DNA of 37,451 bases from Patescibacteria group bacterium (GTDB taxonomy: Bacteria; Patescibacteriota; Minisyncoccia; Phycocordibacterales; UBA9973), in NCBI GenBank assembly GCA_040388095.1, contig JAZKCM010000003.1, forward strand, positions 27,952-65,402. Direction: 5' to 3'. A program made the position numbers and the translations under genes. Shown here piece after piece: positions 1,382 to 11,964 of the stretch (its first letter is position 1; the number at the start of each line of letters is the position of its first letter). The notes beneath the pieces were generated by a model. It saw nothing but the letters and a program-made list of their open reading frames with translations. It ran no database searches and was not told where the DNA came from.

Positions 1382-2212
1382 CTACCAATACTTTTGGTAT
1401 AATTTATACATTTTGTTAAATGAAAAACTAATAGGCAGTTTAGCAAAAAAACCATAAACGACTAAACGAGCGATAGAACGAATATATGCTTTAAAATATT
1501 TTGGGTATTGATTTTTAAAAGTTTTGATCACTTTAAAAATCTTTTTATACTGTTCTATTTTATTTTGAGCACTAATACTTGCATTGTGCAATTTAAACAT
1601 CACTGCATACGAAGGTATGTTTGCAAACTTACCATTTAAACCAAGCCGAAGCCACAGATCATAATCTTCTACGTGGCGTGTATTTATAGATTCATCATAA
1701 CCTCCTATTTGCATCACTTTATCTTTTTTAAAAAGAACACTAGAATGTATAAAACAATTTTTACTTAATATGTTTTTGCGAATTTCACTATCAGTTTGTG
1801 GTAATAAATACCTAAAAAGTTCTCGATTATTTTCATCAACAATAATAACTCCGGTACCCACCAAAACATACTCTGTATTTTTTTCTAAAAAAAGAATTTG
1901 TTCATTTAATTTATTTTGATCACACCAAACATCATCGTCATCGATGCGAGCGATATATTCCCCTTTTGCTTCTTTCAAACCTTTATTAAGAGTTTTTTGA
2001 ATGCCTAGGTTTACTTCATTTTTAATATATTTGATTCTGGCGTCTTTTTTTACAAAAATATCAACAATAGAGGCTGTATTGTCCTGTGAGCCATCGTCGA
2101 GCACCAAAAGCTCCCAATTACTGTATTTTTGGGCTAAAACGCTCTCTAGAGCCATTTCTATGCGCTGTGAGCCATTGTATGTAGGTAATATAATTGATAC
2201 TAATTTTTCCAT
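1382..2212 (-). CDS. Family 2 glycosyltransferase
   Basis: VSIILPTYN, LDDGSQD, YIARIDDDD and EDYDLWLR motifs. Confidence 0.93.
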   Translation of the reverse strand: MEKLVSIILPTYNGSQRIEMALESVLAQKYSNWELLVLDDGSQDNTASIVDIFVKKDARIKYIKNEVNLGIQKTLNKGLKEAKGEYIARIDDDDVWCDQNKLNEQILFLEKNTEYVLVGTGVIIVDENNRELFRYLLPQTDSEIRKNILSKNCFIHSSVLFKKDKVMQIGGYDESINTRHVEDYDLWLRLGLNGKFANIPSYAVMFKLHNASISAQNKIEQYKKIFKVIKTFKNQYPKYFKAYIRSIARLVVYGFFAKLPISFSFNKMYKLYQKYW

Positions 2213-2216
2213 ATTT

Positions 2217-3104
2217 TTATAATCTTATCCATTCTTTAGGTATTAAATCACTGGTATCTATTGAAGGATCAGTGAGCCATTTTTTCGGAGCAATAACCAC
2301 TTTTTCTTTTGCATTACCAAGCCATGCTCCCCACCAAGAAAAACTACTATTTGCCATAATAAAATGTTTACAAGCGCTCATCAGCGTAACAGTTTCAGCC
2401 AAGTTTATATCATTTTCAATATATATTGTCGGGTAATTAAATTTTACATTTTGTTTACACCAATCAATATCATCTCTATCAAAAACATAAATGCAGTCTA
2501 TTTTTCCATTTTTAGAAATTATATCTAGAGCATTTTTATAATATGTTTCATCTAAAACTGAATAATATTTATTACCAAGAGTATCTACAGTAAGATAATC
2601 CCCTCTTCGAATATGAACACAGACAGAATTTTGTGATTCTATTTTTGAAATAAATTGTTTCATTTTTTCAGAATAATTCTTTAATGTAAAATCTTTACGA
2701 AGAATATCTTTAATTTCTAAAAAATATTTCTGATTTTGCCACCATCCTTCGAGATATGCATTTGATCCAAGGTTCATTATTTTAGAATCAAAAAAATAAT
2801 TTTTCTTTTCTTTTCCTGGTGTATTTATAAACTTTCTTCTAATAAAATCAATATAACGTATAAATATTCCTAATGAATATTTTCTATATAAAAATGGTAT
2901 GTCTTTTTTTGAAACAATGTCTGCTTGAATATTAAAGTCACCAAGATTATAGTCACGGAAAGTAAAGTTTGGTATTGGAGTACGGTCCAAAAGAAAAGTT
3001 AAGTCAAGACCTAATTCTGTATTATTTTTTATCGACAAAGCTCGCCCTAATGCGTATTGAAACATTTGGTTACCCATTCCTCCTTGTAATCTGACAATAA
3101 TCAT
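2217..3104 (-). CDS. Alpha-1,2-fucosyltransferase (GT11)
   Basis: GGMGNQMFQYA, HIRRGDY (GDP-fucose binding) and NSSFSWWGAWL motifs. Confidence 0.93.
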   Translation of the reverse strand: MIIVRLQGGMGNQMFQYALGRALSIKNNTELGLDLTFLLDRTPIPNFTFRDYNLGDFNIQADIVSKKDIPFLYRKYSLGIFIRYIDFIRRKFINTPGKEKKNYFFDSKIMNLGSNAYLEGWWQNQKYFLEIKDILRKDFTLKNYSEKMKQFISKIESQNSVCVHIRRGDYLTVDTLGNKYYSVLDETYYKNALDIISKNGKIDCIYVFDRDDIDWCKQNVKFNYPTIYIENDINLAETVTLMSACKHFIMANSSFSWWGAWLGNAKEKVVIAPKKWLTDPSIDTSDLIPKEWIRL

Positions 3105-3111
3105 AACTTTT

Positions 3112-4002
3112 TTATTTTTTTAAATCCAAAATACCCTCTTCTAAAGTAATCTTTGGTGACCAGTCGAGAAGTTCTTTTGCTTTTAATATACTTGCCTCTG
3201 TAGCATATGGCTCAATTCTTTTTTCAATATATACAACTTCCCCACCGATAAGCTCTGCAATTTTATTTATAGAATATGTTTCATCTGTACCGATATTTAT
3301 TACTTCACCACGACCAACATTTTCTATTTTCATAGCCATAATGTTAGCACGAGCAATATCGGTAACATGTATAAAACTACGAGTTTGATTCCCATCCCCT
3401 GTTATCGTCAGAGGTTTACCTTGTTTATACAAATCTACAAACTTCGCAACAACACAAGGATACGCACCATCGACACTCTGTCTTGGGCCATAAACATTAA
3501 AATAACGAAGTGAGACTGTTTCAATACCATATAAATCTGCCCACAACTTACAATACACTTCACCAATATATTTATGAGCACCATATGGAGAAAGTGGCAT
3601 TGCATTCATTGTTTCCACTAAAGGCAAAGTATCTTGATTGCCATATGCAGCACTTGATGCTGCAAAAATAACTCTTTTAACTCCACTCAAACGTGAAGCT
3701 TCGAGTACATTGAGTAAACCAGTAACATTAATGTCGTGAGTTTCTATGGGATTCTCTATTGAATACTGCACTTGTGGCATTGCTGCTTCATGAAAAACAT
3801 ATTTCATGTCCTTAAAGATTTCTATCAATTTTTCTTTATCTCTGATATCTACATTATGGAAAATTGCTTTGGCATTAATATTTTCCATTTTCCCTGCTGA
3901 CAAATTATCAATAATATGTACTTCATAACCGAGCTCAACTAAAGCATCTACAATATGAGATCCTATAAAACCAGCTCCGCCTGTGACAATAATTTTTTCC
4001 AT
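3112..4002 (-). CDS. NAD-dependent nucleotide-sugar epimerase/dehydratase (extended SDR, probably UDP-Glc(NAc) 4-epimerase-like)
   Basis: TGGAGFIG, SSAAYG, YGAHK (YxxxK) and LRYFNVYGPRQ. Start moved to ATG at 4002 (MEKIIVTGG), just after the upstream stop at 4007. Confidence 0.9.
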   Translation of the reverse strand: MEKIIVTGGAGFIGSHIVDALVELGYEVHIIDNLSAGKMENINAKAIFHNVDIRDKEKLIEIFKDMKYVFHEAAMPQVQYSIENPIETHDINVTGLLNVLEASRLSGVKRVIFAASSAAYGNQDTLPLVETMNAMPLSPYGAHKYIGEVYCKLWADLYGIETVSLRYFNVYGPRQSVDGAYPCVVAKFVDLYKQGKPLTITGDGNQTRSFIHVTDIARANIMAMKIENVGRGEVINIGTDETYSINKIAELIGGEVVYIEKRIEPYATEASILKAKELLDWSPKITLEEGILDLKK

Positions 4003-4006
4003 ATAA

Positions 4007-6019
4007 TTATAGTTTAAAATTAGGTATATCTTTTTGCGCCTGATCGACTGCTTCTTTATAAAGTTTGTCATCCCCTTTATTCTTTGCAAAATTAATAAAG
4101 AATGTATGCGATACAGGAATACTTGGATCTAGTGCTATAGCGTCTCTATACGCTTTTTCAGCACTATTTAAATCCGTAGTCCAAGAATACACTTGGGCTA
4201 TTCTCCAATATACTTCTGGATTAGTTGGTGAAATGACAAGGATATGATCTAAAATTTCAAGAATGTGTTTTCGTGTATTTTCATCATTTGGTGTATCAGA
4301 TAAATACGCTTTTGTATTATATAAATCAACAATAGAGATATTTAACCTATAATCACTAGGGTTTTCATTCCTAACAACCTCAAGGTATTTCAAAAAGTTA
4401 TCTAAATCTTTTAAGATGTATGGCAGAACTTGTTTATTATTTTTTATTGCCACAGCATTTTTAAAAAGTGAACCAAATGTATCGTGTGCCAAACCGCCAA
4501 TATCCCATACATCTCCGACAACAGATCGACCTTCAAGTTCACTAAAAGGTTTATTGATCTGCTTACTAAAAACCCTCCCTATAGTATCGAGTTTTTTATA
4601 AGGTCGATATAAGAAATAAATAAAAGAAATAATACACAAAATAACAAGTACTCCAGCTATAAGATTTTTGGCATACCCATCAGTTATTTTAAACTTATTA
4701 TTTTCTATCGAATTATTTTGTAATCCAAAAACAATTCCTATAAATGAGAATAAAACCATAAAAGATAAAACTGAATCAAAGAAAAATAGATTTTGAAATA
4801 CATACCCTACAACTAATCCAAAAAACAATGAGGCTTGCAAGGTGGTCAATATTTCTTTTTCTTTTAATTTATACAAACAAAATAGTATCGAGAGAATAAA
4901 AATAAGATAAAAGATAATTGCTGGATACCCCGCAGAAGCACCAATGTCATAATAAATATTGTGAAATCGATCTGCATATCCTTCATAGTTATATTCAGCA
5001 AGTAACATTTTTGGATTAAAGTGTGCTTGAAATGCAATTGCCTGATTTTCAGGACCATAACCAAACCACGGATGATCATTCATTGCTTTCTGAGCAGCAT
5101 CTCCTAAGATAAAACGTGTACCTGAAGCTACTTGTGTAAATTTTTGATGTAGAAATGTATTAGGTGTCACAAGCTGTTTCCAACCAAATGCAAATACGAT
5201 AAGACTAAGAACAATACCGACAATACCTAAAGTACGAAGTATTTTCTTCTTTGATAAAGATAAGAGCCCTAATCCAGTCGAACCAACACCAACAATAATA
5301 CCGAGTAATGCTCCACGAGCATTACCAAGTAAACTTCCCCCATTAAATAAACCATACACATTTATAAAAATTGGAGAGAAAATAATTGTAGCTAATGCTA
5401 TGCTTATCAATATTTTTGTTTTTTTAGATATTTCTTTTACCGTCAAAAGAAATATTCCAAATACAAATACGAACATCAAGTATGCGGCTGCTACTGAGGA
5501 GTTCCCTGTAAGTCCTCCACCTCCATCTGTTCGTAAAAATTTATAAGGTAAATTAAATCCTCCTGAACCAAACCATAACGACAAAGATAAAACAAAACCA
5601 CCAGCGACAAAATATTGCAAAAGTTTTTGTATATATTCTTTACCATCGCGGTAAACAAGTGAAGCAATAATGAAAGCAAAAAGTAAAGAATGGTAGAGCG
5701 TGAGCAATCCTGTACCTCGTGAAAGTGTAGACCAAAATGAAAGATTAACATCAACAGCCAGTATTCCAGCAAGAGTCATCCAAATTAAAAAACCAATAAC
5801 TGGTAAGAAATACAGTATATTTTTCTTTGGTAAACGATACGATGGATCGACAAATAAAGTGTACAAGAGAACACTTATCAGAATATCGACAACTCCATAG
5901 AAAAAAAATGGTTTTGAAGAAATATGGGGATATATTCTACTTCCGACATAGATAAGAGGTAAAATAAACACTAAAAAATAAGTACCGTATTTCAAAATAT
6001 TTTTACGAAATAAATCCAT
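4007..6019 (-). CDS. O-antigen ligase/Wzy_C-family polytopic membrane protein with C-terminal TPR-like region
   Basis: About 12 hydrophobic segments; ARGALLG, HPWFGYGPEN and DRFHNIY motifs; TPR-like tail (SPTNPEVYWRIAQVY...AIALDP). Start taken at ATG 6019, 6 nt after a TATAAT. Confidence 0.82.
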   Translation of the reverse strand: MDLFRKNILKYGTYFLVFILPLIYVGSRIYPHISSKPFFFYGVVDILISVLLYTLFVDPSYRLPKKNILYFLPVIGFLIWMTLAGILAVDVNLSFWSTLSRGTGLLTLYHSLLFAFIIASLVYRDGKEYIQKLLQYFVAGGFVLSLSLWFGSGGFNLPYKFLRTDGGGGLTGNSSVAAAYLMFVFVFGIFLLTVKEISKKTKILISIALATIIFSPIFINVYGLFNGGSLLGNARGALLGIIVGVGSTGLGLLSLSKKKILRTLGIVGIVLSLIVFAFGWKQLVTPNTFLHQKFTQVASGTRFILGDAAQKAMNDHPWFGYGPENQAIAFQAHFNPKMLLAEYNYEGYADRFHNIYYDIGASAGYPAIIFYLIFILSILFCLYKLKEKEILTTLQASLFFGLVVGYVFQNLFFFDSVLSFMVLFSFIGIVFGLQNNSIENNKFKITDGYAKNLIAGVLVILCIISFIYFLYRPYKKLDTIGRVFSKQINKPFSELEGRSVVGDVWDIGGLAHDTFGSLFKNAVAIKNNKQVLPYILKDLDNFLKYLEVVRNENPSDYRLNISIVDLYNTKAYLSDTPNDENTRKHILEILDHILVISPTNPEVYWRIAQVYSWTTDLNSAEKAYRDAIALDPSIPVSHTFFINFAKNKGDDKLYKEAVDQAQKDIPNFKL

Positions 6020-6046
6020 AAAAGCATTATACCGTAAAAATATAAA

Positions 6047-6080
6047 ACAAAAAAGCACTCATTTCTGAGTGCTTTTTTGT
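6047..6080 (-). terminator. Intrinsic terminator after the surface-protein gene
   Basis: Perfect 15-bp inverted repeat ACAAAAAAGCACTCA/TGAGTGCTTTTTTGT. On the minus strand it has a GAAA loop followed by U6. Confidence 0.88.
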
Positions 6081-6123: not shown

Positions 6124-8205
6124 TTAGTTATTGATATATACAGCGTTAGTTCTAAATGCGTCTACAGGTAACAATGTGTTTACCGCAGAACCTAAGCCAA
6201 GACCAGCATCAGTAAATGTCTGGACTGTCTTAAGTTGTACACGGTAGTAAGTGTTAAGTGTAAGAGGACCAGTTAGAGTAACGTTTACATGGAAGTGCTT
6301 AGATGTTCCTGAAGGGAGCATAAAGCCTGTTCCTAGAGCGTTAGCAGTAGCATCGTCACTTATGATAGTGTGTGATGCTGTACTTGTCCAGTCATTTCCA
6401 TATGAACCTGAAGCTGCGTTTTGGAATACGAATGCAACTGCACCAGAACCTGTTGATGTAACAGCTTCTTGTGTTGATTGACCGATGTATGCATCGTTAC
6501 CGAAAGCAGTGATTGTCAATGGAATACTGTATGAAACTGATGTGATATCACCGTTTGAAGCAACAGTTGTTGAAGTAACAACAGAGCCCATAACTGTGTT
6601 AACACCATTTTCACGTAATGTCATAACATTACCAATAGCTGAACCAACACGTAGTGTTGAACTACCTGCTGTTAATTGATCACCATTTTGATCTTGTACA
6701 GAGAAGTCAACAGCGTCTAATACGTCAGCATTAACTACTGAAGCTACGATTGTTGCACCGTCTGAATAAGAACCAGCTGTCTTTGATTTAAGATCAGCTA
6801 CAACACTGAATTCTACTGTAGAACCAGCAGTGATTGTTTGTGATGACAAGTTAACGAATTTGTAAGCAGTGTTAGTAGCACCAGATGTAGTTGCTGTATC
6901 AGTAGAAGCACCAGTTGTGAATGTATAACCGTTTGAACCATCAACTGAATCAACTAAATCAGAACCTCTGTAAAGTTTCAATGTGTTGATGATAGCAGAA
7001 CCGTTAGCACCTACTGTTGTAACCTGAACAGGAACTTTTCTCAAAGTTAAGTCTGTATTTGTAGCTTTAACTGTGAATTTAAGTAATGTTTGTCCGTTTG
7101 TTGCTGAAGTGTTTCCAACTGATACGATAGCAGCAGATGGATTACTTGAAGAAATACCAACTGTAGCTTTGATACCGTTTGAAACAAACTTACCAAACAA
7201 TAATCCTGTTTGTGTAATAGCACTTGAATCATATGTATCATATGAACCGTCTGGTGATGAAGCACTTATACCTCCTGCTGTGAAAGCAACTGTCCAGTTA
7301 GCATTAGTTGCATCAGATGAATCTAATGATCCGTTAGCATTAACAGAAACATAGAAACGGCCGATAGTGTCTTTTGCTATTGGAGCGTTTAAGCCAGAGA
7401 AGTTAAATGTGTATGTATCAGATGATGTAGCACGGTCAGCATCGTTAACTGACATTGTTGCTAACTTTGTAGAACCCATCCATAGTGAAGCACTAGAGAT
7501 GTATTTTCCAAGGTTAGTTGAGCCAGTACCTGCGTTTACAAAAGTAACACGTACGCGGTTAACATTTTGTGAAGACAAGCGAGCTGTTGCACGGAAACCA
7601 GCGACAACTTTGTCTGTTTCTGATTCGTACACTGTTGAAACACGGTTTGTTGAATCAGCAGCAAAATCAGCTAAGTAGCCGTTTGTACCACTAACAACAG
7701 TAGTTGATGTACATGGCTGGCCAGTTGTAACACTGAAACCTGCTGCTGTAGCACAACCTGCTGGTAATACAGCACCTGCACCATTACATGGCATACCAGT
7801 AGTCATACTGAAGCCTGCAGCTGAAGCACAGCCTGCTGGGAAGTTTCCAGAAACGTTTCCGCGAGCTACGAGAGCTGCACGTGACATAGGTCCGAAAACT
7901 CCGTCAGCTGTAAGGCCGAGGTTAGCTTGCATACTCATAACTGCTGCTTTTGTAGCGTTTCCGAAGTATGTTGTTTCCATACCTGGAGATCCTGCACTAA
8001 CACCGTCAACATGGAAACCTTTTTCATTAAGCATCTGTTGTAGACACATAACTTGACTGTTTCTCATGCCATACTTCAAGGTTATAGTGAAAGTTGAACA
8101 ATTAGCTGCGCTAACAGGATTTGCCTTAACAGCAAAAACTCCAACGAACATAACTGCAACAACCATCATTCCAAGAAGGAATTTTGATTTGAATAATTTA
8201 CTCAT
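6124..8205 (-). CDS. Large secreted Ser/Thr/Gly-rich surface (S-layer-like) protein with N-terminal peptidoglycan-binding domain
   Basis: Signal peptide; PG_binding_1-like segment (LKYGMRNSQVMCLQQML...YFGNATKAAV...LTADGVFGPMSRAAL); Cys repeats; long beta-rich body; codon usage visibly skewed as in highly expressed genes. Confidence 0.8.
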   Translation of the reverse strand: MSKLFKSKFLLGMMVVAVMFVGVFAVKANPVSAANCSTFTITLKYGMRNSQVMCLQQMLNEKGFHVDGVSAGSPGMETTYFGNATKAAVMSMQANLGLTADGVFGPMSRAALVARGNVSGNFPAGCASAAGFSMTTGMPCNGAGAVLPAGCATAAGFSVTTGQPCTSTTVVSGTNGYLADFAADSTNRVSTVYESETDKVVAGFRATARLSSQNVNRVRVTFVNAGTGSTNLGKYISSASLWMGSTKLATMSVNDADRATSSDTYTFNFSGLNAPIAKDTIGRFYVSVNANGSLDSSDATNANWTVAFTAGGISASSPDGSYDTYDSSAITQTGLLFGKFVSNGIKATVGISSSNPSAAIVSVGNTSATNGQTLLKFTVKATNTDLTLRKVPVQVTTVGANGSAIINTLKLYRGSDLVDSVDGSNGYTFTTGASTDTATTSGATNTAYKFVNLSSQTITAGSTVEFSVVADLKSKTAGSYSDGATIVASVVNADVLDAVDFSVQDQNGDQLTAGSSTLRVGSAIGNVMTLRENGVNTVMGSVVTSTTVASNGDITSVSYSIPLTITAFGNDAYIGQSTQEAVTSTGSGAVAFVFQNAASGSYGNDWTSTASHTIISDDATANALGTGFMLPSGTSKHFHVNVTLTGPLTLNTYYRVQLKTVQTFTDAGLGLGSAVNTLLPVDAFRTNAVYINN
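7711..7842 (-). repeat. Two tandem Cys-bracketed peptide repeats (75-bp period)
   Basis: FPAGCASAAGFSMTTGMPC (7842-7786) and LPAGCATAAGFSVTTGQPC (7767-7711). Confidence 0.85.
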
Positions 8206-8596
8206 AAAGTTATTTTTAATTTCTGCTCAGTAACTTTTTATTTTTAATTTATAAAAATTACTAATCAGGTTCGTGCAATCATTAATTAGTTTCGACAAAA
8301 CTAAGAACTGCACAATTTTTCTATCACTACTTTTTGTCAGCTTTTTAACGAAGACAATAAACTAGTGGACAGATATAAACGAAAACATTTCTATCTTACG
8401 ACAGACCCGCTTTTTAAAGGCGGAGAAAACTAAACATTTTTCTTACAGGATTTATTAAATTCTGTAAAAATTACTATTTAATTTTCAATGATCTTTCCTT
8501 GTTTCTACTTGAGATTCTTTCGACAAAATCTCCAGCAAAAACAAATACAGATTGTTAATACAATGAAGACGTATAAAATACGCAAATCATATTAAC
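8206..8596 (-). ncRNA. Putative long structured 5' leader RNA
   Basis: No ORF listed in the track. About 8 consecutive hairpins (8554-8596, 8499-8544, 8443-8467, 8407-8423, 8371-8396, 8325-8367, 8273-8313, 8223-8268) start right after a sigma70 promoter. Confidence 0.6.
8482..8493 (-). promoter_or_regulatory. boxA-like antitermination sequence
   Basis: Minus strand GATCATTGAAAA, unpaired, 5 nt after a long hairpin; resembles rrn boxA (GWTCTTTGAAAA type). Confidence 0.45.
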
Positions 8597-8602
8597 TTTT
8601 TT

Positions 8603-8631
8603 ATTATAATCCCTACTCCATAAGAGAGCAA
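8603..8631 (-). promoter_or_regulatory. Sigma70-type promoter P2 of the surface-protein gene
   Basis: TTGCTC (8631-8626), 17-bp spacer, TATAAT (8608-8603). Confidence 0.7.
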
Positions 8632-8638
8632 AATTATA

Positions 8639-8647
8639 TGTGGATAA
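8639..8647 (-). promoter_or_regulatory. Perfect DnaA box
   Basis: Plus strand TGTGGATAA equals TTATCCACA on the minus strand; lies between the two promoters. Confidence 0.6.
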
Positions 8648-8678
8648 CTTGAGATTTTGGCTCAAATTCCACTCCTTT

Positions 8679-8707
8679 ATACTAGCAAATTTTTGTATAA
8701 AAAGCAA
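8679..8707 (-). promoter_or_regulatory. Sigma70-type promoter P1 (extended -10)
   Basis: TTGCTT (8707-8702), 17-bp spacer, TGcTAGTAT (hexamer 8684-8679). Confidence 0.55.
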
Positions 8708-8800
8708 TACATATACTCCCCTACCCTATCGATATGTATAGTCCCTGTGTTCTAAGATATATAAACAAATAGACTACATTTATAGGAGTAAAGTATAGAT

Positions 8801-9586
8801 CTATTTCAGAGAGTATTTAGACCATCTTTTCTCGCCAATTTTATTAAGGACATTATCCTTGATCATAGCGATCAATTCTCTTTGGAGAGTCTTTTCACTA
8901 CAGGATTTTAGAACTCCCGTTTTGTTTTGTAGTATGTCCTTTATGGTCGCTTGTTTCATTTCTTTTATTACTTTTACTATCTCAAATCTTCTTTCTTTTT
9001 TTAACATATCAAAACCTTCTGAGTATTGTTTTTGAGAAGTTTTGTCCGATAGAGCTTTCATTAAAGTGCCTCCTTTTTGAAGCCCGATATTTGTACTTTT
9101 CGTATGTCCATTATGATGTCCTTTATAAAATATTTCTTTTCTAGGTAATACTTGTATGTAAGAATTTTGATCTTCTTCTATGAAATAACCATCGATAGAA
9201 ATAGCATTTTCTTGTGGAACAAGTAGAGCATTCTTAAGTTCATAAAATTCACGAAATAAGATATTCTTATTCATCTGAGATATCATCTTCAATGTAGTTG
9301 TAATATCCAAAAAAGACATAATGCTTTCTACTTTAGTCGAAGCAGAAATATTATCATTCTGATCAATGTCTGATATGATTTCGGTTGCCAATGTCCGTAT
9401 CTTATTTCTCATCGGTTCGTTTTTGTCCATTATGTCCGTAACCATATAAACTGCTGTTACAAGCTTATTTGTCTTTTTATATGATATTTTATTGTCCTTA
9501 ATGAGAGACTCTCTTTCTCTGGAAAGAGAGCTAGCAACTTTGTTAGAATTTGAGAAGTCTTTAAGATTTTTATTTTCTCCAAACAT
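8801..9586 (-). CDS. Putative DNA-binding protein: N-terminal four-helix-bundle-like domain, linker, C-terminal winged helix (DeoR-like HTH)
   Basis: C-terminal RRFEIVKVIK..ATIKDI..CSEKTLQRELIAMIKDNVLNKIGEKRWSKYSL fits a wHTH. N-terminal KKTNKLVTAVYMVTDIMDKNEPMRNKIR resembles 23S-IVP/Avd-type bundles. Start at ATG 9586 inferred from the promoter position. Confidence 0.7.
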   Translation of the reverse strand: MFGENKNLKDFSNSNKVASSLSRERESLIKDNKISYKKTNKLVTAVYMVTDIMDKNEPMRNKIRTLATEIISDIDQNDNISASTKVESIMSFLDITTTLKMISQMNKNILFREFYELKNALLVPQENAISIDGYFIEEDQNSYIQVLPRKEIFYKGHHNGHTKSTNIGLQKGGTLMKALSDKTSQKQYSEGFDMLKKERRFEIVKVIKEMKQATIKDILQNKTGVLKSCSEKTLQRELIAMIKDNVLNKIGEKRWSKYSLK

Positions 9587-9611
9587 GCTGTCCATTATAT
9601 ATAACGGACAG
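8843..9611. repeat. Dispersed array of ~14 TGTCYNWWAT-like motifs in the wHTH gene and its promoter
   Basis: Plus-strand copies start at 8935, 9043, 9105, 9117, 9367, 9392, 9424, 9433, 9470, 9493 and 9589. Minus-strand copies lie at 8843-8852, 9309-9318 and 9601-9610. Confidence 0.85.
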
Positions 9612-9622
9612 GAGTAAGTCAA
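9588..9622 (-). promoter_or_regulatory. Promoter with overlapping palindromic operator
   Basis: TTGACT (9622-9617), 17-bp spacer, TATAAT (9599-9594). Palindrome CTGTCCATTATA/TATAACGGACAG (9588-9611, one mismatch) covers the spacer and -10. Confidence 0.85.
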
Positions 9623-9626
9623 ACAA

Positions 9627-9707
9627 AATAATCTTAAAAAGATATTTTCTGAGTGGTCTGGCTGACTTCCTCCGAGGACCCGAGGAAAACATTTTTTTAA
9701 GATTATT
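9627..9707. repeat. 81-bp palindromic element (REP/MITE-like)
   Basis: 23-bp arms with 2 mismatches (9627-9649 / 9685-9707) enclose a GC-rich core GTCTGGCTGA-N11-GACCCGAGGA. Confidence 0.7.
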
Positions 9708-9771
9708 ATATAAATTTACACAATGATGATTCTGCGAATTTAAATTCAAATATGCTAAAATATATGTACCT

Positions 9772-11964
9772 ATGGCAAAAAAAGAAAACAAGAAACAAAA
9801 AAATTCTTCCACAAAAACAGAATCTTTTACAACTCTCAAAACTGAAACGAAACATGGTATCTGGGCCGTCGTTTTTTTTGTTTTAGCACTCTTCTTGATT
9901 CTCTCTTCATTCGGTAGCGCTGGTATCGCCGGCAAGTTTTTCTATCGAATTTTTTCGTACTTACTTGGTGTCGGCTATGCACTCCTCCCAATACTTTTCT
10001 TACTCCTCGGTTACTCATTTGTAAAATCTGAAAAACCAAATATTGGTTTAGGGCGAGGTATCAGTGCAGGACTTTTTTTAGTCTCAAGTCTTGGGCTTTT
10101 TGATATAGCTTCGAAGAATCATGCTGGTGGATTTTTAGGAAAAATAACTGCTATGCCACTCGTCGGACTTTTTGATATTTATGCAAGTATTGTCTTCCTC
10201 GGAGCGCTTCTAATTATTTCACTTTTAATGATGTTTGATGCACGTCCAACACTCCTTCCATACATAGAAAAAATCTTTACAATTTTTAGGAAAAAAACTG
10301 CCGGACTTGCTATCAATAACGACGATGAAATCGAAGCAGAACTTGGCACAGAAAAAGACCCAGAAGAAGAGGAAGAAGTACCTGAAGAAAAACCTCAAAA
10401 AGAAATTAAAAAAGATAAAGTAAAAGAAAAAAAAGAGGAAGAAGAATTGACTCCAAATCCAGCTGGCAAATATGTCTCTCACGCATACGTTCCTCCCCCA
10501 CTTTCTCTTCTCGAAGAAGACAAAGGAAAGCCAAATACTGGCGACATCAAAGCTAATGCAAATATCATCAAAAGAACTCTCCAGAACTTCGGTATTGAAG
10601 TTGAAATGGATGAGATTACAGTCGGCCCGACTGTCACTCGCTATGCCTTGAAGCCTGCAGAAGGTGTAAAACTCTCTCGCATCGTCGGCCTCCAGAGCGA
10701 CCTCGCGCTTGCTCTCGCTGCCCACCCTATCCGTATTGAAGCACCGATCCCAGGAAAATCTCTCGTCGGTATTGAAATTCCAAACAAAGTAAAATCTACA
10801 GTCGGACTCGCGACACTCCTCGCAGATGAGAAATTCCAAAATTCTGCCAAGCCACTCACTGTCGCTCTCGGTCGTGGTATTTCTGGAAAAGCGACATTTG
10901 CAAACTTAGCAAAAATGCCACACGCCCTCATCGCCGGTACGACTGGTTCTGGAAAATCTGTCACTATACACTCAGTCATCACATCGCTTCTATATAGAAA
11001 TGGCCCAGACGACCTCAAATTTATTATGGTTGACCCAAAGAGAGTCGAGCTCACACTATATAACAAGATTCCTCACCTACTCACTCCTGTCATAACTGAC
11101 GCAAAGAAATCAATTCTCGCACTCAAATGGGCTGCAAAAGAAATGGATCGCAGGTATGACATCTTGCAGGAAGTATCAGTACGCGATATCGGCTCATATC
11201 ACGAAAGTTTTGCTGGTAAGATGAAAAAAGTCGTAAACGAAGCTGGAGAAAAAGTTGAAAAAGAAAATGAACGTATGCCATATATCGTCATTATCATCGA
11301 CGAACTTGCAGATATTATGACTGCATATCCAAGAGAATTAGAATCAGCGATCGTCCGCCTCGCACAAATGTCTCGAGCAGTTGGAATACATATCATCCTC
11401 TCCACTCAACGCCCTGAAGTCAATGTTATTACTGGACTCATTAAAGCCAACATTCCTGCCCGCGTCGCACTCAAAGTGTCTTCCGGTATCGATTCCCGTA
11501 CAATTCTCGATGCGACAGGTGCAGAAAAGCTCCTTGGAGCTGGAGATATGCTTTATTCTTCAGGCGAAGCTCAGCCAGAACGTCTCCAAAGTGCCTTTAT
11601 TTCAGAAGGCGAAGTGAAGAAAGTCGTAAAATACCTTGCAGAAAGTTATGCAGATGAGATTACAGCTGAAATTTCTCTTTCAAATGAGAGTATTTCCCGA
11701 GACAAGAGCATATTTGAATCCAATTTGGACGAAGAAGACAGCGAAGAAGATGAAATGTACGAGGAAGCGAGAAGTGTTATAATAGAAGCAGGTAAAGCAA
11801 GTACTTCGTACCTCCAAAGAAAACTCGGTCTCGGTTATGCACGAGCTGCACGCTTGATCGATATGCTCGAAGAACGTGGTGTCGTCGGACCTGGAAGCGG
11901 ATCAAAACCAAGAGAAGTATTAGAAAAAATCGACCGAGATGAAAACGGTAATAACGTAATATAA
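9772..11964 (+). CDS. ftsK: DNA translocase FtsK/SpoIIIE
   Basis: N-terminal transmembrane helices, GPTVTRY, RIEAPIPGK, Walker A GTTGSGKS, IIDELAD, gamma domain STSYLQRKLGLGYARAARLID. Confidence 0.97.
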   Translation: MAKKENKKQKNSSTKTESFTTLKTETKHGIWAVVFFVLALFLILSSFGSAGIAGKFFYRIFSYLLGVGYALLPILFLLLGYSFVKSEKPNIGLGRGISAGLFLVSSLGLFDIASKNHAGGFLGKITAMPLVGLFDIYASIVFLGALLIISLLMMFDARPTLLPYIEKIFTIFRKKTAGLAINNDDEIEAELGTEKDPEEEEEVPEEKPQKEIKKDKVKEKKEEEELTPNPAGKYVSHAYVPPPLSLLEEDKGKPNTGDIKANANIIKRTLQNFGIEVEMDEITVGPTVTRYALKPAEGVKLSRIVGLQSDLALALAAHPIRIEAPIPGKSLVGIEIPNKVKSTVGLATLLADEKFQNSAKPLTVALGRGISGKATFANLAKMPHALIAGTTGSGKSVTIHSVITSLLYRNGPDDLKFIMVDPKRVELTLYNKIPHLLTPVITDAKKSILALKWAAKEMDRRYDILQEVSVRDIGSYHESFAGKMKKVVNEAGEKVEKENERMPYIVIIIDELADIMTAYPRELESAIVRLAQMSRAVGIHIILSTQRPEVNVITGLIKANIPARVALKVSSGIDSRTILDATGAEKLLGAGDMLYSSGEAQPERLQSAFISEGEVKKVVKYLAESYADEITAEISLSNESISRDKSIFESNLDEEDSEEDEMYEEARSVIIEAGKASTSYLQRKLGLGYARAARLIDMLEERGVVGPGSGSKPREVLEKIDRDENGNNVI

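What the first reader, a model, noticed from the sequence alone, without database searches (positions are those of the whole stretch)
8206..8596. About 390-nt multi-hairpin leader RNA with an internally duplicated module
Seen: the first hairpin begins at the predicted P2 start site, and ~8 hairpins tile the region up to the ATG. G-U pairs in the 8499-8544 and 8223-8268 stems favour the minus strand; two smaller stems favour plus. The 11-mer UUUUGUCGAAA caps two different hairpins (8528-8518 and 8300-8290). Each is followed by the same 12-mer UAGUAAUUUUUA (8476-8465 and 8263-8252). A complementary GACAAAA (8338-8332) lies between them and would allow alternative pairing. Intergenic spaces elsewhere in the window are much shorter. 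Established: S-layer mRNAs often have long stabilising leaders. Inference: an undescribed cis-regulatory RNA with two protein-binding or tertiary-contact modules.
Basis: partly seen in the sequence, partly recalled or inferred. Interest (0 to 1): 0.7.

Follow-up and report, generated by a model that had tools for sequence, protein, structure and literature searches.

The report
Conserved structured leader of envelope-protein mRNA
A roughly 390-base folded leader in front of a cell-surface protein gene of a tiny-genome (Patescibacteria) bacterium is real, conserved across its genus and found in RNA libraries, and most likely helps this mRNA last and be expressed strongly.

Summary
Window 8206-8596 (minus strand) folds far better than shuffles (z -7.5; opposite strand -3.6) and matches no Rfam family. 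It is the 5' leader of a 693-aa gene for a protein with a signal peptide and a PG_binding_1 domain, in a Nomurabacteria/Paceibacterota-like genome of about 0.45 Mb.

The leader is conserved and syntenic. A covariance model of its last hairpin hits once per genome in 111 of 151 genomes of the genus. It hits 0 of 149 (order) and 0 of 148 (class) genomes outside the genus.

Five hairpins (H1-H5) are conserved. On 15 species, 24 of 49 pairs show compensatory changes (0 of 500 shuffles reach this). Contigs from 4 of 4 metatranscriptome runs cover the leader and run on into the coding sequence.

The 11-mer cap UUUYGUCGAAA on H2 and H5 is conserved (two GUCGAAA in 42 of 49 leaders). The 12-mer repeat, the GACAAAA and the last hairpin (8223-8268) are lineage-specific.

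No terminator and no helix that hides the start codon was found. My best reading is an mRNA-stabilising, expression-supporting leader of the S-layer-gene type, with probable protein-binding caps. This is inference. It is a new member of a known kind, of moderate interest.

The parts
8702..8707 (-). P1 -35-like hexamer (TTGCTT). With the -10 at 8679-8684 it forms an upstream candidate promoter of the extended -10 type.
   Evidence: TTGC.TTT and TG..A...T are invariant in 15 aligned intergenic regions. One RNA-library contig (X9) reaches window 8649 plus 11 more letters, which fits a start upstream of P2. The TSS is not mapped.
8679..8684 (-). P1 -10-like hexamer (TAGTAT), preceded by TGC.
   Evidence: Alignment A1; sequence.
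8639..8647 (-). TTATCCACA box, 7 nt upstream of the P2 -35. It is identical to the 9-mer I recall as the consensus DnaA box.
   Evidence: TTATCCAC is invariant in 14 of 15 aligned species; the 15th has TTTTCCAC. It is present in all 49 leaders I extracted, but it was my anchor for extraction. In the window's own genome the same 9-mer lies upstream of the dnaA and dnaN starts.
8603..8631 (-). P2 candidate promoter: -35 TTGCTC (8626-8631), 17-nt spacer holding a small hairpin or inverted repeat, -10 TATAAT (8603-8608).
   Evidence: TTG and TATAAT are conserved with 16-18 nt spacing. The inner pairs of the spacer hairpin covary in 49 species. RNA contigs of two studies both end at 8579, with about 3 more letters, which is 14-17 nt inside the predicted start G8596.
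8554..8596 (-). H1: nested hairpin that begins at the predicted P2 start (a 5'-terminal stem-loop).
   Evidence: z -3.7. Covariation: H1 plus H2 have 27 pairs, 25 with compensatory change, in 46 species; 0 of 300 shuffles reach this.
8501..8542 (-). H2: long hairpin capped by UUUUGUCGAAA (8518-8528).
   Evidence: z -4.9. Helices 1-3 have 15 pairs, 11 with changes on both sides. The cap is UUUCGUCGAAAAA in 38 of the 47 leaders scored. H2 is absent or altered in a few species.
8491..8500 (-). Conserved purine-rich linker (AAGGAAAGAU) leading into the invariant CAUUGAAAA.
   Evidence: Alignments A1 and A5. No partner with covariation was found.
8425..8490 (-). H3: conserved base CAUUGAAAA / UUUUC(AAUG) enclosing a variable apical hairpin. 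The first copy of the 12-mer lies in the variable part.
   Evidence: helix 4; z -5.7. Sequence-conserved with little covariation (2 of 10 pairs).
8406..8424 (-). Small G+C-rich hairpin, lineage-specific (seen in the window and one other aligned species).
   Evidence: columns 409-430 are filled only in WIN and G013.
8321..8373 (-). H4: conserved base (CUGUYCAC / GUGAUAG) enclosing a variable A+U-rich hairpin. GACAAAA (8332-8338) is its non-conserved 3' arm.
   Evidence: z -4.9. 17 pairs, 11 compensatory, in 43 species; 0 of 300 shuffles reach this. Helices 5-6.
8273..8313 (-). H5: covarying outer stem, internal loop, near-invariant inner stem, and cap UUUUGUCGAAAC (cap 8290-8300). This is the most conserved part and the basis of model R1.
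   Evidence: (helices 7-9). R1 hits once per genome in 111 of 151 genus genomes.
8223..8268 (-). H6: extra A+U hairpin before the start codon, lineage-specific. It holds the second copy of the 12-mer.
   Evidence: Absent in 11 of the 15 aligned species. RNA contigs of other species skip 8207-8282.
8206..8222 (-). A-rich unpaired stretch before the AUG; no Shine-Dalgarno sequence.
   Evidence: Genome-wide, only 9 of 284 long ORFs have GGAG or GAGG upstream.
6124..8205 (-). Downstream gene: 693-aa protein with a signal peptide, PG_binding_1 (residues 49-112), short Cys-containing repeats and a long Ser/Thr/Ala/Gly/Asn-rich part.

Best explanation
Window 8206-8596 is the structured 5' untranslated leader of the mRNA for a secreted, peptidoglycan-anchored envelope protein (6124-8205, minus strand).

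Transcription most likely starts at G8596, from a near-consensus promoter P2, and to a lesser degree from an upstream promoter P1. The RNA begins with a 5'-terminal stem-loop (H1). Four more conserved hairpins (H2-H5) follow, and lineage-specific hairpins are inserted between or inside them. The AUG lies in an unpaired A-rich stretch, usually 23-34 nt after H5.

I infer that the leader acts in cis and mainly constitutively. By burying A/U-rich single strands and capping the 5' end, it would protect the message from endonuclease and 5'-end-dependent decay (RNase Y is encoded in this genome). That would sustain high output of an abundant surface protein, as described for the long 5' UTRs of Lactobacillus S-layer genes.

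The sequence-invariant parts are most likely contact sites for a protein. These are the two UUUYGUCGAAA caps, the CAUUGAAAA base of H3 and the H5 internal loop.

Shown: conservation, structure, single copy, restriction to the genus, and presence in RNA libraries joined to the coding sequence.
Inferred: the transcription start, stabilisation, and protein binding.
For: Structure. Minus-strand z is -7.46 against -3.60 for the plus strand. On 15 species, 49 predicted pairs are 94.3% paired, against 42-51% when partners are slid by 1-3 columns. 24 pairs show changes on both sides, against 7-10 when slid, and 0 of 500 shuffles reach this. On 43-46 species, H1+H2 have 25 of 27 pairs compensatory and H4 has 11 of 17; 0 of 300 shuffles reach either.

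Link to the gene. All 14 true relatives found by BLAST show the same order: a roughly 300-aa ORF, a 380-790-nt gap, then an MSKLLKSKFLLG... PG-binding protein.

Copy number and spread. There is one copy in the window's own genome. There is one hit each in 111 of 151 genus genomes.

RNA. In 4 of 4 metatranscriptome runs from 4 studies, contigs of a relative mostly 90-99% identical cover the leader and continue into the coding sequence. X17 record 12 covers 8170-8579 at depth 150.7, and a 107-letter loose end at 8170 runs on toward the coding side. X9 record 25 covers 8170-8649. Contigs of other species carry the same leader without H6.

Start of the RNA. H1 begins about 7 nt after the conserved TATAAT.

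No switch parts. 0 terminator-like sites were found in 8000-9900, and the AUG region is unpaired in the MFE.

Genomic setting. The genome looks largely SD-less and leaderless, so a long leader is exceptional here. RNase Y is present.

Other families. Four of five folded upstream regions of N-terminally similar PG-binding genes from other families of the order are also strongly structured (z -5.1 to -8.2). These share no match to the R1 model, which fits a general physical role.

Literature. Passages of PMC3666127 report S-layer transcripts with 14-15 min half-lives, long 5' UTRs forming stabilising structure, and two promoters.
Against: - No half-life, TSS or abundance measurement exists here. 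Logan contigs cannot show starts, strand or level, and RNA libraries can contain DNA.
- That the protein is an S-layer or otherwise very abundant protein is not shown.
- Pure stabilisation does not need near-invariant loop and linker sequences held across more than 100 species. That conservation points to a specific partner, and hence possibly to regulation rather than passive protection.
- RNase J (C-terminal domain) and RNase E/G were not found, though the genome is only 84% complete. The decay route that a 5' hairpin would block is therefore unknown.
- H2 and H3 are missing in some species, so not all hairpins are needed.
- Orthology of the out-of-genus genes is uncertain. I chose those loci, and 4 of the 8 examined have upstream gaps under 230 nt.
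Confidence: 0.55

Rival explanations
1. Protein-responsive regulatory leader. The two identical UUUYGUCGAAA caps (H2 and H5), and perhaps the H5 internal loop, are bound by an RNA-binding protein, possibly a dimer. Binding would tune translation or decay of the envelope-protein mRNA in response to envelope state or the cell cycle. The main job would then be control, not passive stabilisation.
For: - GUCGAAAC in H5 is invariant, while the stem beneath it covaries.
- 42 of 49 leaders have two GUCGAAA copies; this is 35 of the 39 that were not picked for long H5.
- Hairpins inserted into the H5 loop keep GUCGAAAC intact and have their own conserved loop.
- H5 ends 23-34 nt before the AUG in most species, which is within reach of an initiating ribosome.
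- The gene has tandem promoters with a conserved DnaA-box-like site, which suggests that its expression is controlled.
Against: - No binding protein is identified.
- H2 is lost or altered in some species (G003, G019, G012, G116) without a consistent compensating change.
- No conserved alternative pairing was found.
- Nothing here measures a response.
Confidence: 0.22
2. Riboswitch or other small-molecule or ion sensor that controls the surface-protein gene.
For: It is a long, conserved, covarying leader with invariant unpaired nucleotides in front of a single gene class.
Against: - The architecture is hairpins in series. No multi-helix junction or covarying long-range pairing was found.
- There is no terminator-like site, and the AUG is not sequestered.
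- Whole hairpins come and go between species.
- Distribution is limited to one genus.
- No Rfam riboswitch matches even at E up to 10.
Confidence: 0.07
3. Independent or processed small RNA. The region encodes a stand-alone ncRNA, or one released from the mRNA by cleavage, that acts in trans.
For: - It has its own strong promoter.
- The high structure and sequence conservation are typical of ncRNA genes.
- In several runs the leader appears as short contigs (about 200-520 nt) of its own.
Against: - Contigs in 4 of 4 RNA runs bridge the leader and the start of the coding sequence.
- There is no terminator between the leader and the AUG.
- The element always sits directly upstream of the same gene, in the same orientation.
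Confidence: 0.08
4. A DNA-level regulatory region (arrays of protein-binding sites or palindromes) and not a functional RNA.
For: The region upstream of 8596 does carry DNA signals: two promoters, a DnaA-box-like 9-mer and a palindrome across the P2 spacer.
Against: - Within 8206-8596 the stems keep pairing through compensatory and G-U changes, and stability is clearly strand-biased.
- The region is present in RNA libraries joined to the coding sequence.
Confidence: 0.03

Closest known systems
Long 5' untranslated leaders of S-layer protein genes (for example slpA of Lactobacillus acidophilus ATCC 4356 and L. crispatus K313), as summarised in PMC3666127 (passages read)
   Same: A long structured leader in front of a gene for a secreted cell-surface protein. 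Tandem promoters. A hairpin at or near the 5' end. No obvious switch. The presumed role is mRNA stability and high yield.
   Different: No sequence or Rfam relationship. This leader is longer (median 333 nt in 39 species) and carries near-invariant loop and linker sequences over more than 100 species. The protein is not shown to form an S-layer. The host is an SD-less, largely leaderless Patescibacterium. Stabilisation is not measured.
5'-terminal stem-loop mRNA stabilisers of bacteria (such as the ompA leader and Gram-positive 5' stabilisers); recalled, no paper read here
   Same: H1 starts at the predicted +1, so the 5' end would be base-paired.
   Different: The TSS is not mapped. The element has four further conserved hairpins with sequence-specific caps that a simple 5' cap-hairpin does not need.
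Protein-binding mRNA leaders with repeated hairpin-loop motifs (CsrA-type or ribosomal-protein autoregulatory leaders); recalled
   Same: The same short motif is displayed at the top of two hairpins in one leader, near the translation start.
   Different: The motif (UUUYGUCGAAA) is not a GGA motif. The GGA in the linker is not conserved. No partner protein is known, and no Rfam leader family matches.
DnaA-box-regulated promoters (for example the dnaA promoter region with a box near tandem promoters); recalled
   Same: A perfect TTATCCACA lies between P1 and P2, 7 nt upstream of the P2 -35, and is conserved across the genus. The same 9-mer lies upstream of the dnaA and dnaN starts in this genome.
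   Different: It concerns the promoter and not the leader RNA. Binding and effect are untested. The target, a surface-protein gene, is unusual.

Membership tests
Any Rfam 15 family | Covariance-model score at or above the family's gathering threshold | tested here: not met
   0 matches in the whole window at gathering thresholds. In 8100-8900 at E up to 10 there are only 11 sub-threshold chance-level matches (best 19.3 bits against a gathering score of 50), none to a bacterial leader or riboswitch.
S-layer-gene type stabilising 5' UTR | A long 5' UTR transcribed together with the surface-protein coding sequence | tested here: met
   RNA-library contigs bridge 8170-8579 and 8170-8649 and continue toward the coding side in 4 of 4 runs. 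Caveat: these are contigs, and DNA carry-over is possible.
S-layer-gene type stabilising 5' UTR | The downstream gene encodes the S-layer (major lattice) protein | tested here: inconclusive
   Signal peptide, PG_binding_1, Ser/Thr-rich body and an adjacent Wzy_C/glycosyltransferase cluster. Atlas look-alikes are 'hypothetical, PG_binding_1'. No SLH or known S-layer family matches.
S-layer-gene type stabilising 5' UTR | The leader prolongs mRNA half-life or raises yield | not testable with these tools
   Needs half-life or reporter assays.
S-layer-gene type stabilising 5' UTR | Stable secondary structure at the 5' end of the transcript | tested here: inconclusive
   H1 starts about 7 nt after the conserved -10 and covaries. 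The TSS is only predicted; RNA contigs of two studies end 14-17 nt inside it.
Riboswitch | Expression platform: an intrinsic terminator or a helix that sequesters the start site, mutually exclusive with the aptamer | tested here: not met
   0 terminator-like sites in 8000-9900. The AUG and the preceding 17 nt are unpaired in the MFE. No conserved alternative pairing has covariation.
Riboswitch | A compact conserved aptamer (junction or pseudoknot) kept in all members | tested here: not met
   Hairpins lie in series. H2 and H3 are absent in some species, and hairpins are inserted into H5 loops.
Riboswitch | Specific ligand binding | not testable with these tools
   Needs probing or binding assays.
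tRNA-like element / T-box | Detected by a tRNA or tmRNA model or by the T-box covariance model | tested here: not met
   ARAGORN finds 0 genes in 8000-9000. No T-box match in Rfam.
DnaA box (promoter element upstream of the leader) | The 9-mer TTATCCACA (consensus recalled), also clustered at the organism's own dnaA/oriC region | tested here: met
   A perfect 9-mer lies at 8647-8639. There are 7 copies in the 450-kb genome, about 5.6 expected by my own estimate, and two of them lie upstream of the dnaA and dnaN starts. Binding by DnaA is not testable here.

The most novel reading that the evidence does not exclude
The leader is an RNA platform that displays two identical GUCGAAA-capped hairpins to a so far unknown (dimeric) RNA-binding protein. 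Together with the conserved DnaA-box-like site between the tandem promoters, it would couple synthesis of the main envelope protein to the cell cycle or envelope state. That would be a post-transcriptional control circuit specific to one large genus of ultra-small Patescibacteria, organisms in which almost no gene regulation has been described.
Probability: 0.15. Interest if true: 0.65.

Novelty: new member of a known kind. Interest (0 to 1): 0.45.

Why it matters
Patescibacteria (CPR) have tiny genomes and few recognisable regulators. In this genome most genes appear to lack leaders and Shine-Dalgarno sequences.

This leader is about 330-390 nt long and is kept with compensatory changes in more than 100 species in front of one envelope-protein gene. 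It is therefore one of the few strongly conserved non-coding elements visible in this group. It marks that gene as special, probably the major surface protein.

It is a ready candidate for a new RNA family: more than 110 members, good covariation, and presence in RNA libraries. It also offers a concrete handle for studying mRNA stability and translation start in SD-less, RNase Y-type CPR bacteria, through the invariant caps and the H5 hairpin.

If it is only a stabiliser, it extends a known S-layer-gene strategy to CPR.

Tried and rejected
- **Rfam.** Nothing at gathering thresholds or at E up to 10.
- **tRNA-like reading of the caps.** ARAGORN finds nothing. The UCGAA core of the cap reminded me of T-loop motifs; this is recalled only and untested.
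- **Loss of H2 compensated by a hairpin inserted in the H5 loop.** Suggested by G003 and G019. Rejected after fetching 10 more species with long H5: G097 and others have both a canonical H2 and an H5 insert.
- **Long-range or alternative pairings.** A scan of conserved 5-nt windows found only A/U-rich complementarities between H2, H3 and H5 strands. None has covariation, so all may be chance. The GGAAAGRU/AUCUGUYC pairing that I tried by hand has uncompensated changes.
Present, but not conserved.
- **A leader peptide after the GGAAAGG linker (UUG AAA ...).** By my reading of the alignment, a stop at codon 5 occurs in only about 10 of 15 species. Frames are broken by indels. Rejected.
- **The 50-aa ORF 8555-8707.** It spans P1 to H1 across a region of variable length. 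Rejected.
- **CsrA-type GGA motif in the linker.** The GGA is not conserved.
- **The search for related loci with the N-terminal protein alignment.** RecA was used instead, for taxonomy only.
- **Pattern search for box plus -35 in the genus.** It hits 133 of 151 genomes, but it also hits other loci, and the reversed control hits many genomes. It is not a clean count for this locus.
- **No read cover over 8696-9000 in the four RNA runs.** Absence of cover is not evidence.
- **The search of earlier findings.** Nothing for this place or sequence.
- **Literature searches for a prior description.** Searches listed nothing on this motif. One search was not useful.

Full report
**Setting.** The finding (8206-8596) lies in a 595-nt gap (8206-8800) between two minus-strand ORFs.
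- Downstream is a 693-aa protein (6124-8205) with an N-terminal signal peptide, a PG_binding_1 domain (E 2.6e-12) and a long Ser/Thr/Ala/Gly/Asn-rich body.
- After it come a Wzy_C (O-antigen-ligase-like) protein, an epimerase and two glycosyltransferases.
- Upstream is a 273-aa ORF with no Pfam family.
- The window belongs to a 450-kb, 84%-complete assembly. The nearest named RecA relatives are Candidatus Nomurabacteria / Paceibacterota MAGs (Patescibacteria).

- The minus strand folds to -110.4 kcal/mol against -67.0 +/- 5.8 for shuffles (z -7.46, 0 of 100). The plus strand gives only z -3.60.
- Each hairpin alone beats its shuffles.
- As bare repeats they are weak. Exact repeats of 11 nt or more occur in 150 of 1000 dinucleotide shuffles of this A+T-rich stretch.
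- Rfam has nothing, neither at gathering thresholds over the window nor at E up to 10 over 8100-8900.

**Conservation and synteny.**
- BLAST of the gap found pieces in 15 of 24 other genomes of the same GTDB genus and in 0 of 16 genomes of other families.
- One of the 15 (L015) was a spurious site. The other 14 share the gene order: a roughly 300-aa ORF, a gap of 380-790 nt, then an MSKLLKSKFLLG... PG-binding protein.
- The alignment shows blocks of near-invariant sequence separated by stretches of variable length.

**Structure and covariation.** RNAalifold on 15 leaders gave 49 pairs, 24 of them with compensatory changes.
- Counted independently, 94.3% of cells are paired, against 42-51% when partners are slid by 1-3 columns.
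- 24 pairs have changes on both sides, against 7-10 when slid. 0 of 500 shuffles reach any of the five measures.
- I then used 49 leaders: the window, 14 BLAST relatives, 24 of the 30 best R1 loci, and 10 species that I picked for long H5 hits. I anchored them on conserved words and aligned them segment by segment.
- On these, H1+H2 have 27 pairs, 25 compensatory (46 distinct sequences). H4 has 17 pairs, 11 compensatory (43 sequences). 0 of 300 shuffles reach either.
- H5 has 14 pairs, 3 compensatory, all in its outer stem (3 of 300 shuffles). H3 has 10 pairs, 2 compensatory (not significant). The inner H5 and H3 stems are simply invariant.

**Window coordinates of the hairpins.**

| Element | Window | Note |
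|---|---|---|
| H1 | 8596-8554 | begins at the predicted P2 start |
| H2 | 8542-8501 | cap 8528-8518 |
| H3 | 8490-8425 | variable apical part |
| H4 | 8373-8321 | variable A+U-rich inner hairpin |
| H5 | 8313-8273 | cap 8300-8290 |

- Hairpins 8424-8406 and 8268-8223 are lineage-specific.
- The 12-mer copies lie in the variable top of H3 and in the lineage-specific last hairpin. GACAAAA is the non-conserved 3' arm inside H4.
- The 'duplicated module' therefore reduces to the conserved cap UUUYGUCGAAA. Two GUCGAAA copies occur in 42 of 49 leaders, or 35 of the 39 not selected for long H5.
- Some species lack H2 (G003), have an altered H2 loop (G019), or lack H2 and H3 (G012, G116). H5 tolerates inserted hairpins in its apical loop and in its 3' internal loop, and GUCGAAAC stays intact.

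**Distribution.**
- Model R1 (H5 plus the preceding GUGAUAGAAAA, 56 positions) hits once in the window's own genome. R2 (H2 plus linker) also hits one site there, on the sense strand at E 4e-15, with a weak antisense echo.
- In the genus, R1 hits exactly once each in 111 of 151 genomes. One of these hits is in the unpublished genome G146.
- G116, a non-hit, carries a divergent short leader, so 111 of 151 is a lower bound.
- Outside the genus, R1 hits 0 of 149 genomes from 117 other families of the order and 0 of 148 genomes of the class. Both searches used Infernal's stricter filters.

**Transcription.**
- Six metatranscriptome runs hold 5-8% of the sampled words of 7400-9000. I laid four of them, from four studies.
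- All four give contigs, mostly 90-99% identical to the window, that cover the leader and reach the coding sequence:

| Run and record | Covers | Note |
|---|---|---|
| X17 record 12 | 8170-8579 | 521 nt, depth 150.7; a 107-letter loose end at 8170 runs on toward the coding side |
| X10 records 3 and 4 | 8170-8356 and 8380-8579 | |
| X18 records 17 and 19 | 8170-8360 and 8344-8550 | |
| X9 record 25 | 8170-8649 | 878 nt; also fits 8049-8067 inside the coding sequence |

- The X10 and X17 contigs both stop at 8579 (about 3 more letters), 14-17 nt inside the predicted P2 start. The X9 contig runs past P2 and the box, as a P1 transcript would.
- Other contigs skip 8207-8282. They come from species whose H5 is followed directly by a short A-rich linker and the AUG.
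- Limits: contigs cannot give strand, ends or level, and RNA libraries may hold DNA.

- P1: -35 at 8707-8702 and an extended -10 at 8684-8679. P2: -35 at 8631-8626 and TATAAT at 8608-8603. Both are conserved.
- Between them, 7 nt upstream of the P2 -35, lies TTATCCACA (8647-8639). It is kept in every leader examined, with a one-letter variant in two species.
- The same 9-mer lies upstream of the dnaA and dnaN starts of this genome. It equals the DnaA-box consensus as I recall it.
- The P2 spacer holds an inverted repeat whose inner pairs covary.

**How it most likely works.**
- I find no terminator, no helix that hides the AUG, and no covarying long-range pairing. Whole hairpins are gained and lost. 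That is unlike a riboswitch.
- The genome has almost no Shine-Dalgarno sequences: 9 of 284 long ORFs have GGAG or GAGG upstream. It also shows a -10-like profile right before start codons. Most mRNAs therefore look leaderless, and this long leader is an exception that must pay for itself.
- RNase Y is encoded. RNase E/G and the RNase J C-domain were not found in the 84%-complete genome.
- Upstream regions of N-terminally similar PG-binding genes in other families of the order are long in 4 of the 8 loci I examined. These four are strongly structured (z -5.1 to -8.2). One with a 197-nt gap is not (z -0.6). None matches R1. Orthology is uncertain.
- Passages of PMC3666127 describe S-layer transcripts with long half-lives, stabilising long 5' UTRs and two promoters. 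A passage of PMC8056022 states that S-layer protein mRNAs have increased stability. A preprint predicts S-layer proteins in Patescibacteria (10.1101/2024.05.28.596244, passages).
- I therefore commit, at 0.55, to a cis-acting, largely constitutive stabilising and expression-supporting leader. The invariant caps are probable protein contacts.
- The main rival (0.22) is that those contacts make it a protein-responsive switch. Riboswitch (0.07), separate sRNA (0.08) and DNA-only element (0.03) are less likely.

**Novelty.**
- No Rfam family matches. My literature searches (listings only) show no description of it.
- It is a new, genus-restricted member of the known kind 'long structured 5' leader of a surface-protein mRNA'.
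- It is solid as an RNA motif. Its function is not shown.

Noticed in passing
window 8639-8647 (minus strand); G000 contig C2 at 75038, 76689 and 50006: A perfect TTATCCACA lies between two tandem promoters of the surface-protein gene and is conserved across the genus. The same 9-mer lies upstream of the dnaA and dnaN starts and 6 nt upstream of another TTGACT -35 in this genome. This may be a small DnaA regulon that includes the envelope-protein gene.
   Followed up: partly
window 8603-8638 (minus strand): The spacer of promoter P2 is an inverted repeat (AUAAUAUAU..GCUC/GAGC..AUAUAUUAU in most species). Its inner 3-4 pairs covary in 49 species. It could be an operator or cruciform, or an RNA hairpin in P1-derived transcripts.
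   Followed up: partly
whole genome G000 (284 long ORFs): Only 3% of long ORFs have GGAG or GAGG upstream. The base profile shows TG at -15/-14 and TAnAAT at -12 to -7 relative to the ATG, so many genes look leaderless and SD-less.
   Followed up: partly
window 8801-9622 (minus strand): The upstream ORF of about 273 aa is syntenic with the leader in all relatives examined. Its C-terminus resembles winged-helix (HTH_DeoR-like) domains, by protein-atlas look-alikes only. It is a candidate regulator of P1/P2.
   Followed up: partly
window 7786-7900 (residues about 105-140 of the 693-aa protein) and relatives (alignment A3): After the PG_binding_1 domain come one or more short repeats of the form PAGC-x8-10-TG-x-PC. 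They are conserved in most orthologues and match no Pfam family.
   Followed up: no
window 1382-6058 (minus strand): Directly downstream of the surface-protein gene are a Wzy_C (O-antigen-ligase-like) membrane protein, an NAD-dependent epimerase, and GT11 and GT2 glycosyltransferases. This would fit glycosylation of the surface protein.
   Followed up: no
loci L134, L135, L137, L139, L140 (H5 region): In several species a hairpin is inserted between UUUUG and AAGUCGAAAC of the H5 cap. The inserted hairpin has its own conserved loop (AWUAAAAG), so there is a second, extended form of H5.
   Followed up: partly
loci L147, L150, L162, L166 (other families of the order): PG_binding_1 surface-protein genes in other families also have gaps of 467-775 nt upstream. 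The 300 nt before the ATG fold far better than shuffles (z -5.1 to -8.2, sense better than antisense). None matches the R1 model.
   Followed up: partly
many genus genomes, for example G009:C48, G105:C1, G006:C20:208945: A second conserved site, TTATCCACATATTCTATTG (box plus TTG), recurs at another locus in many species of the genus. The gene it precedes was not identified.
   Followed up: no
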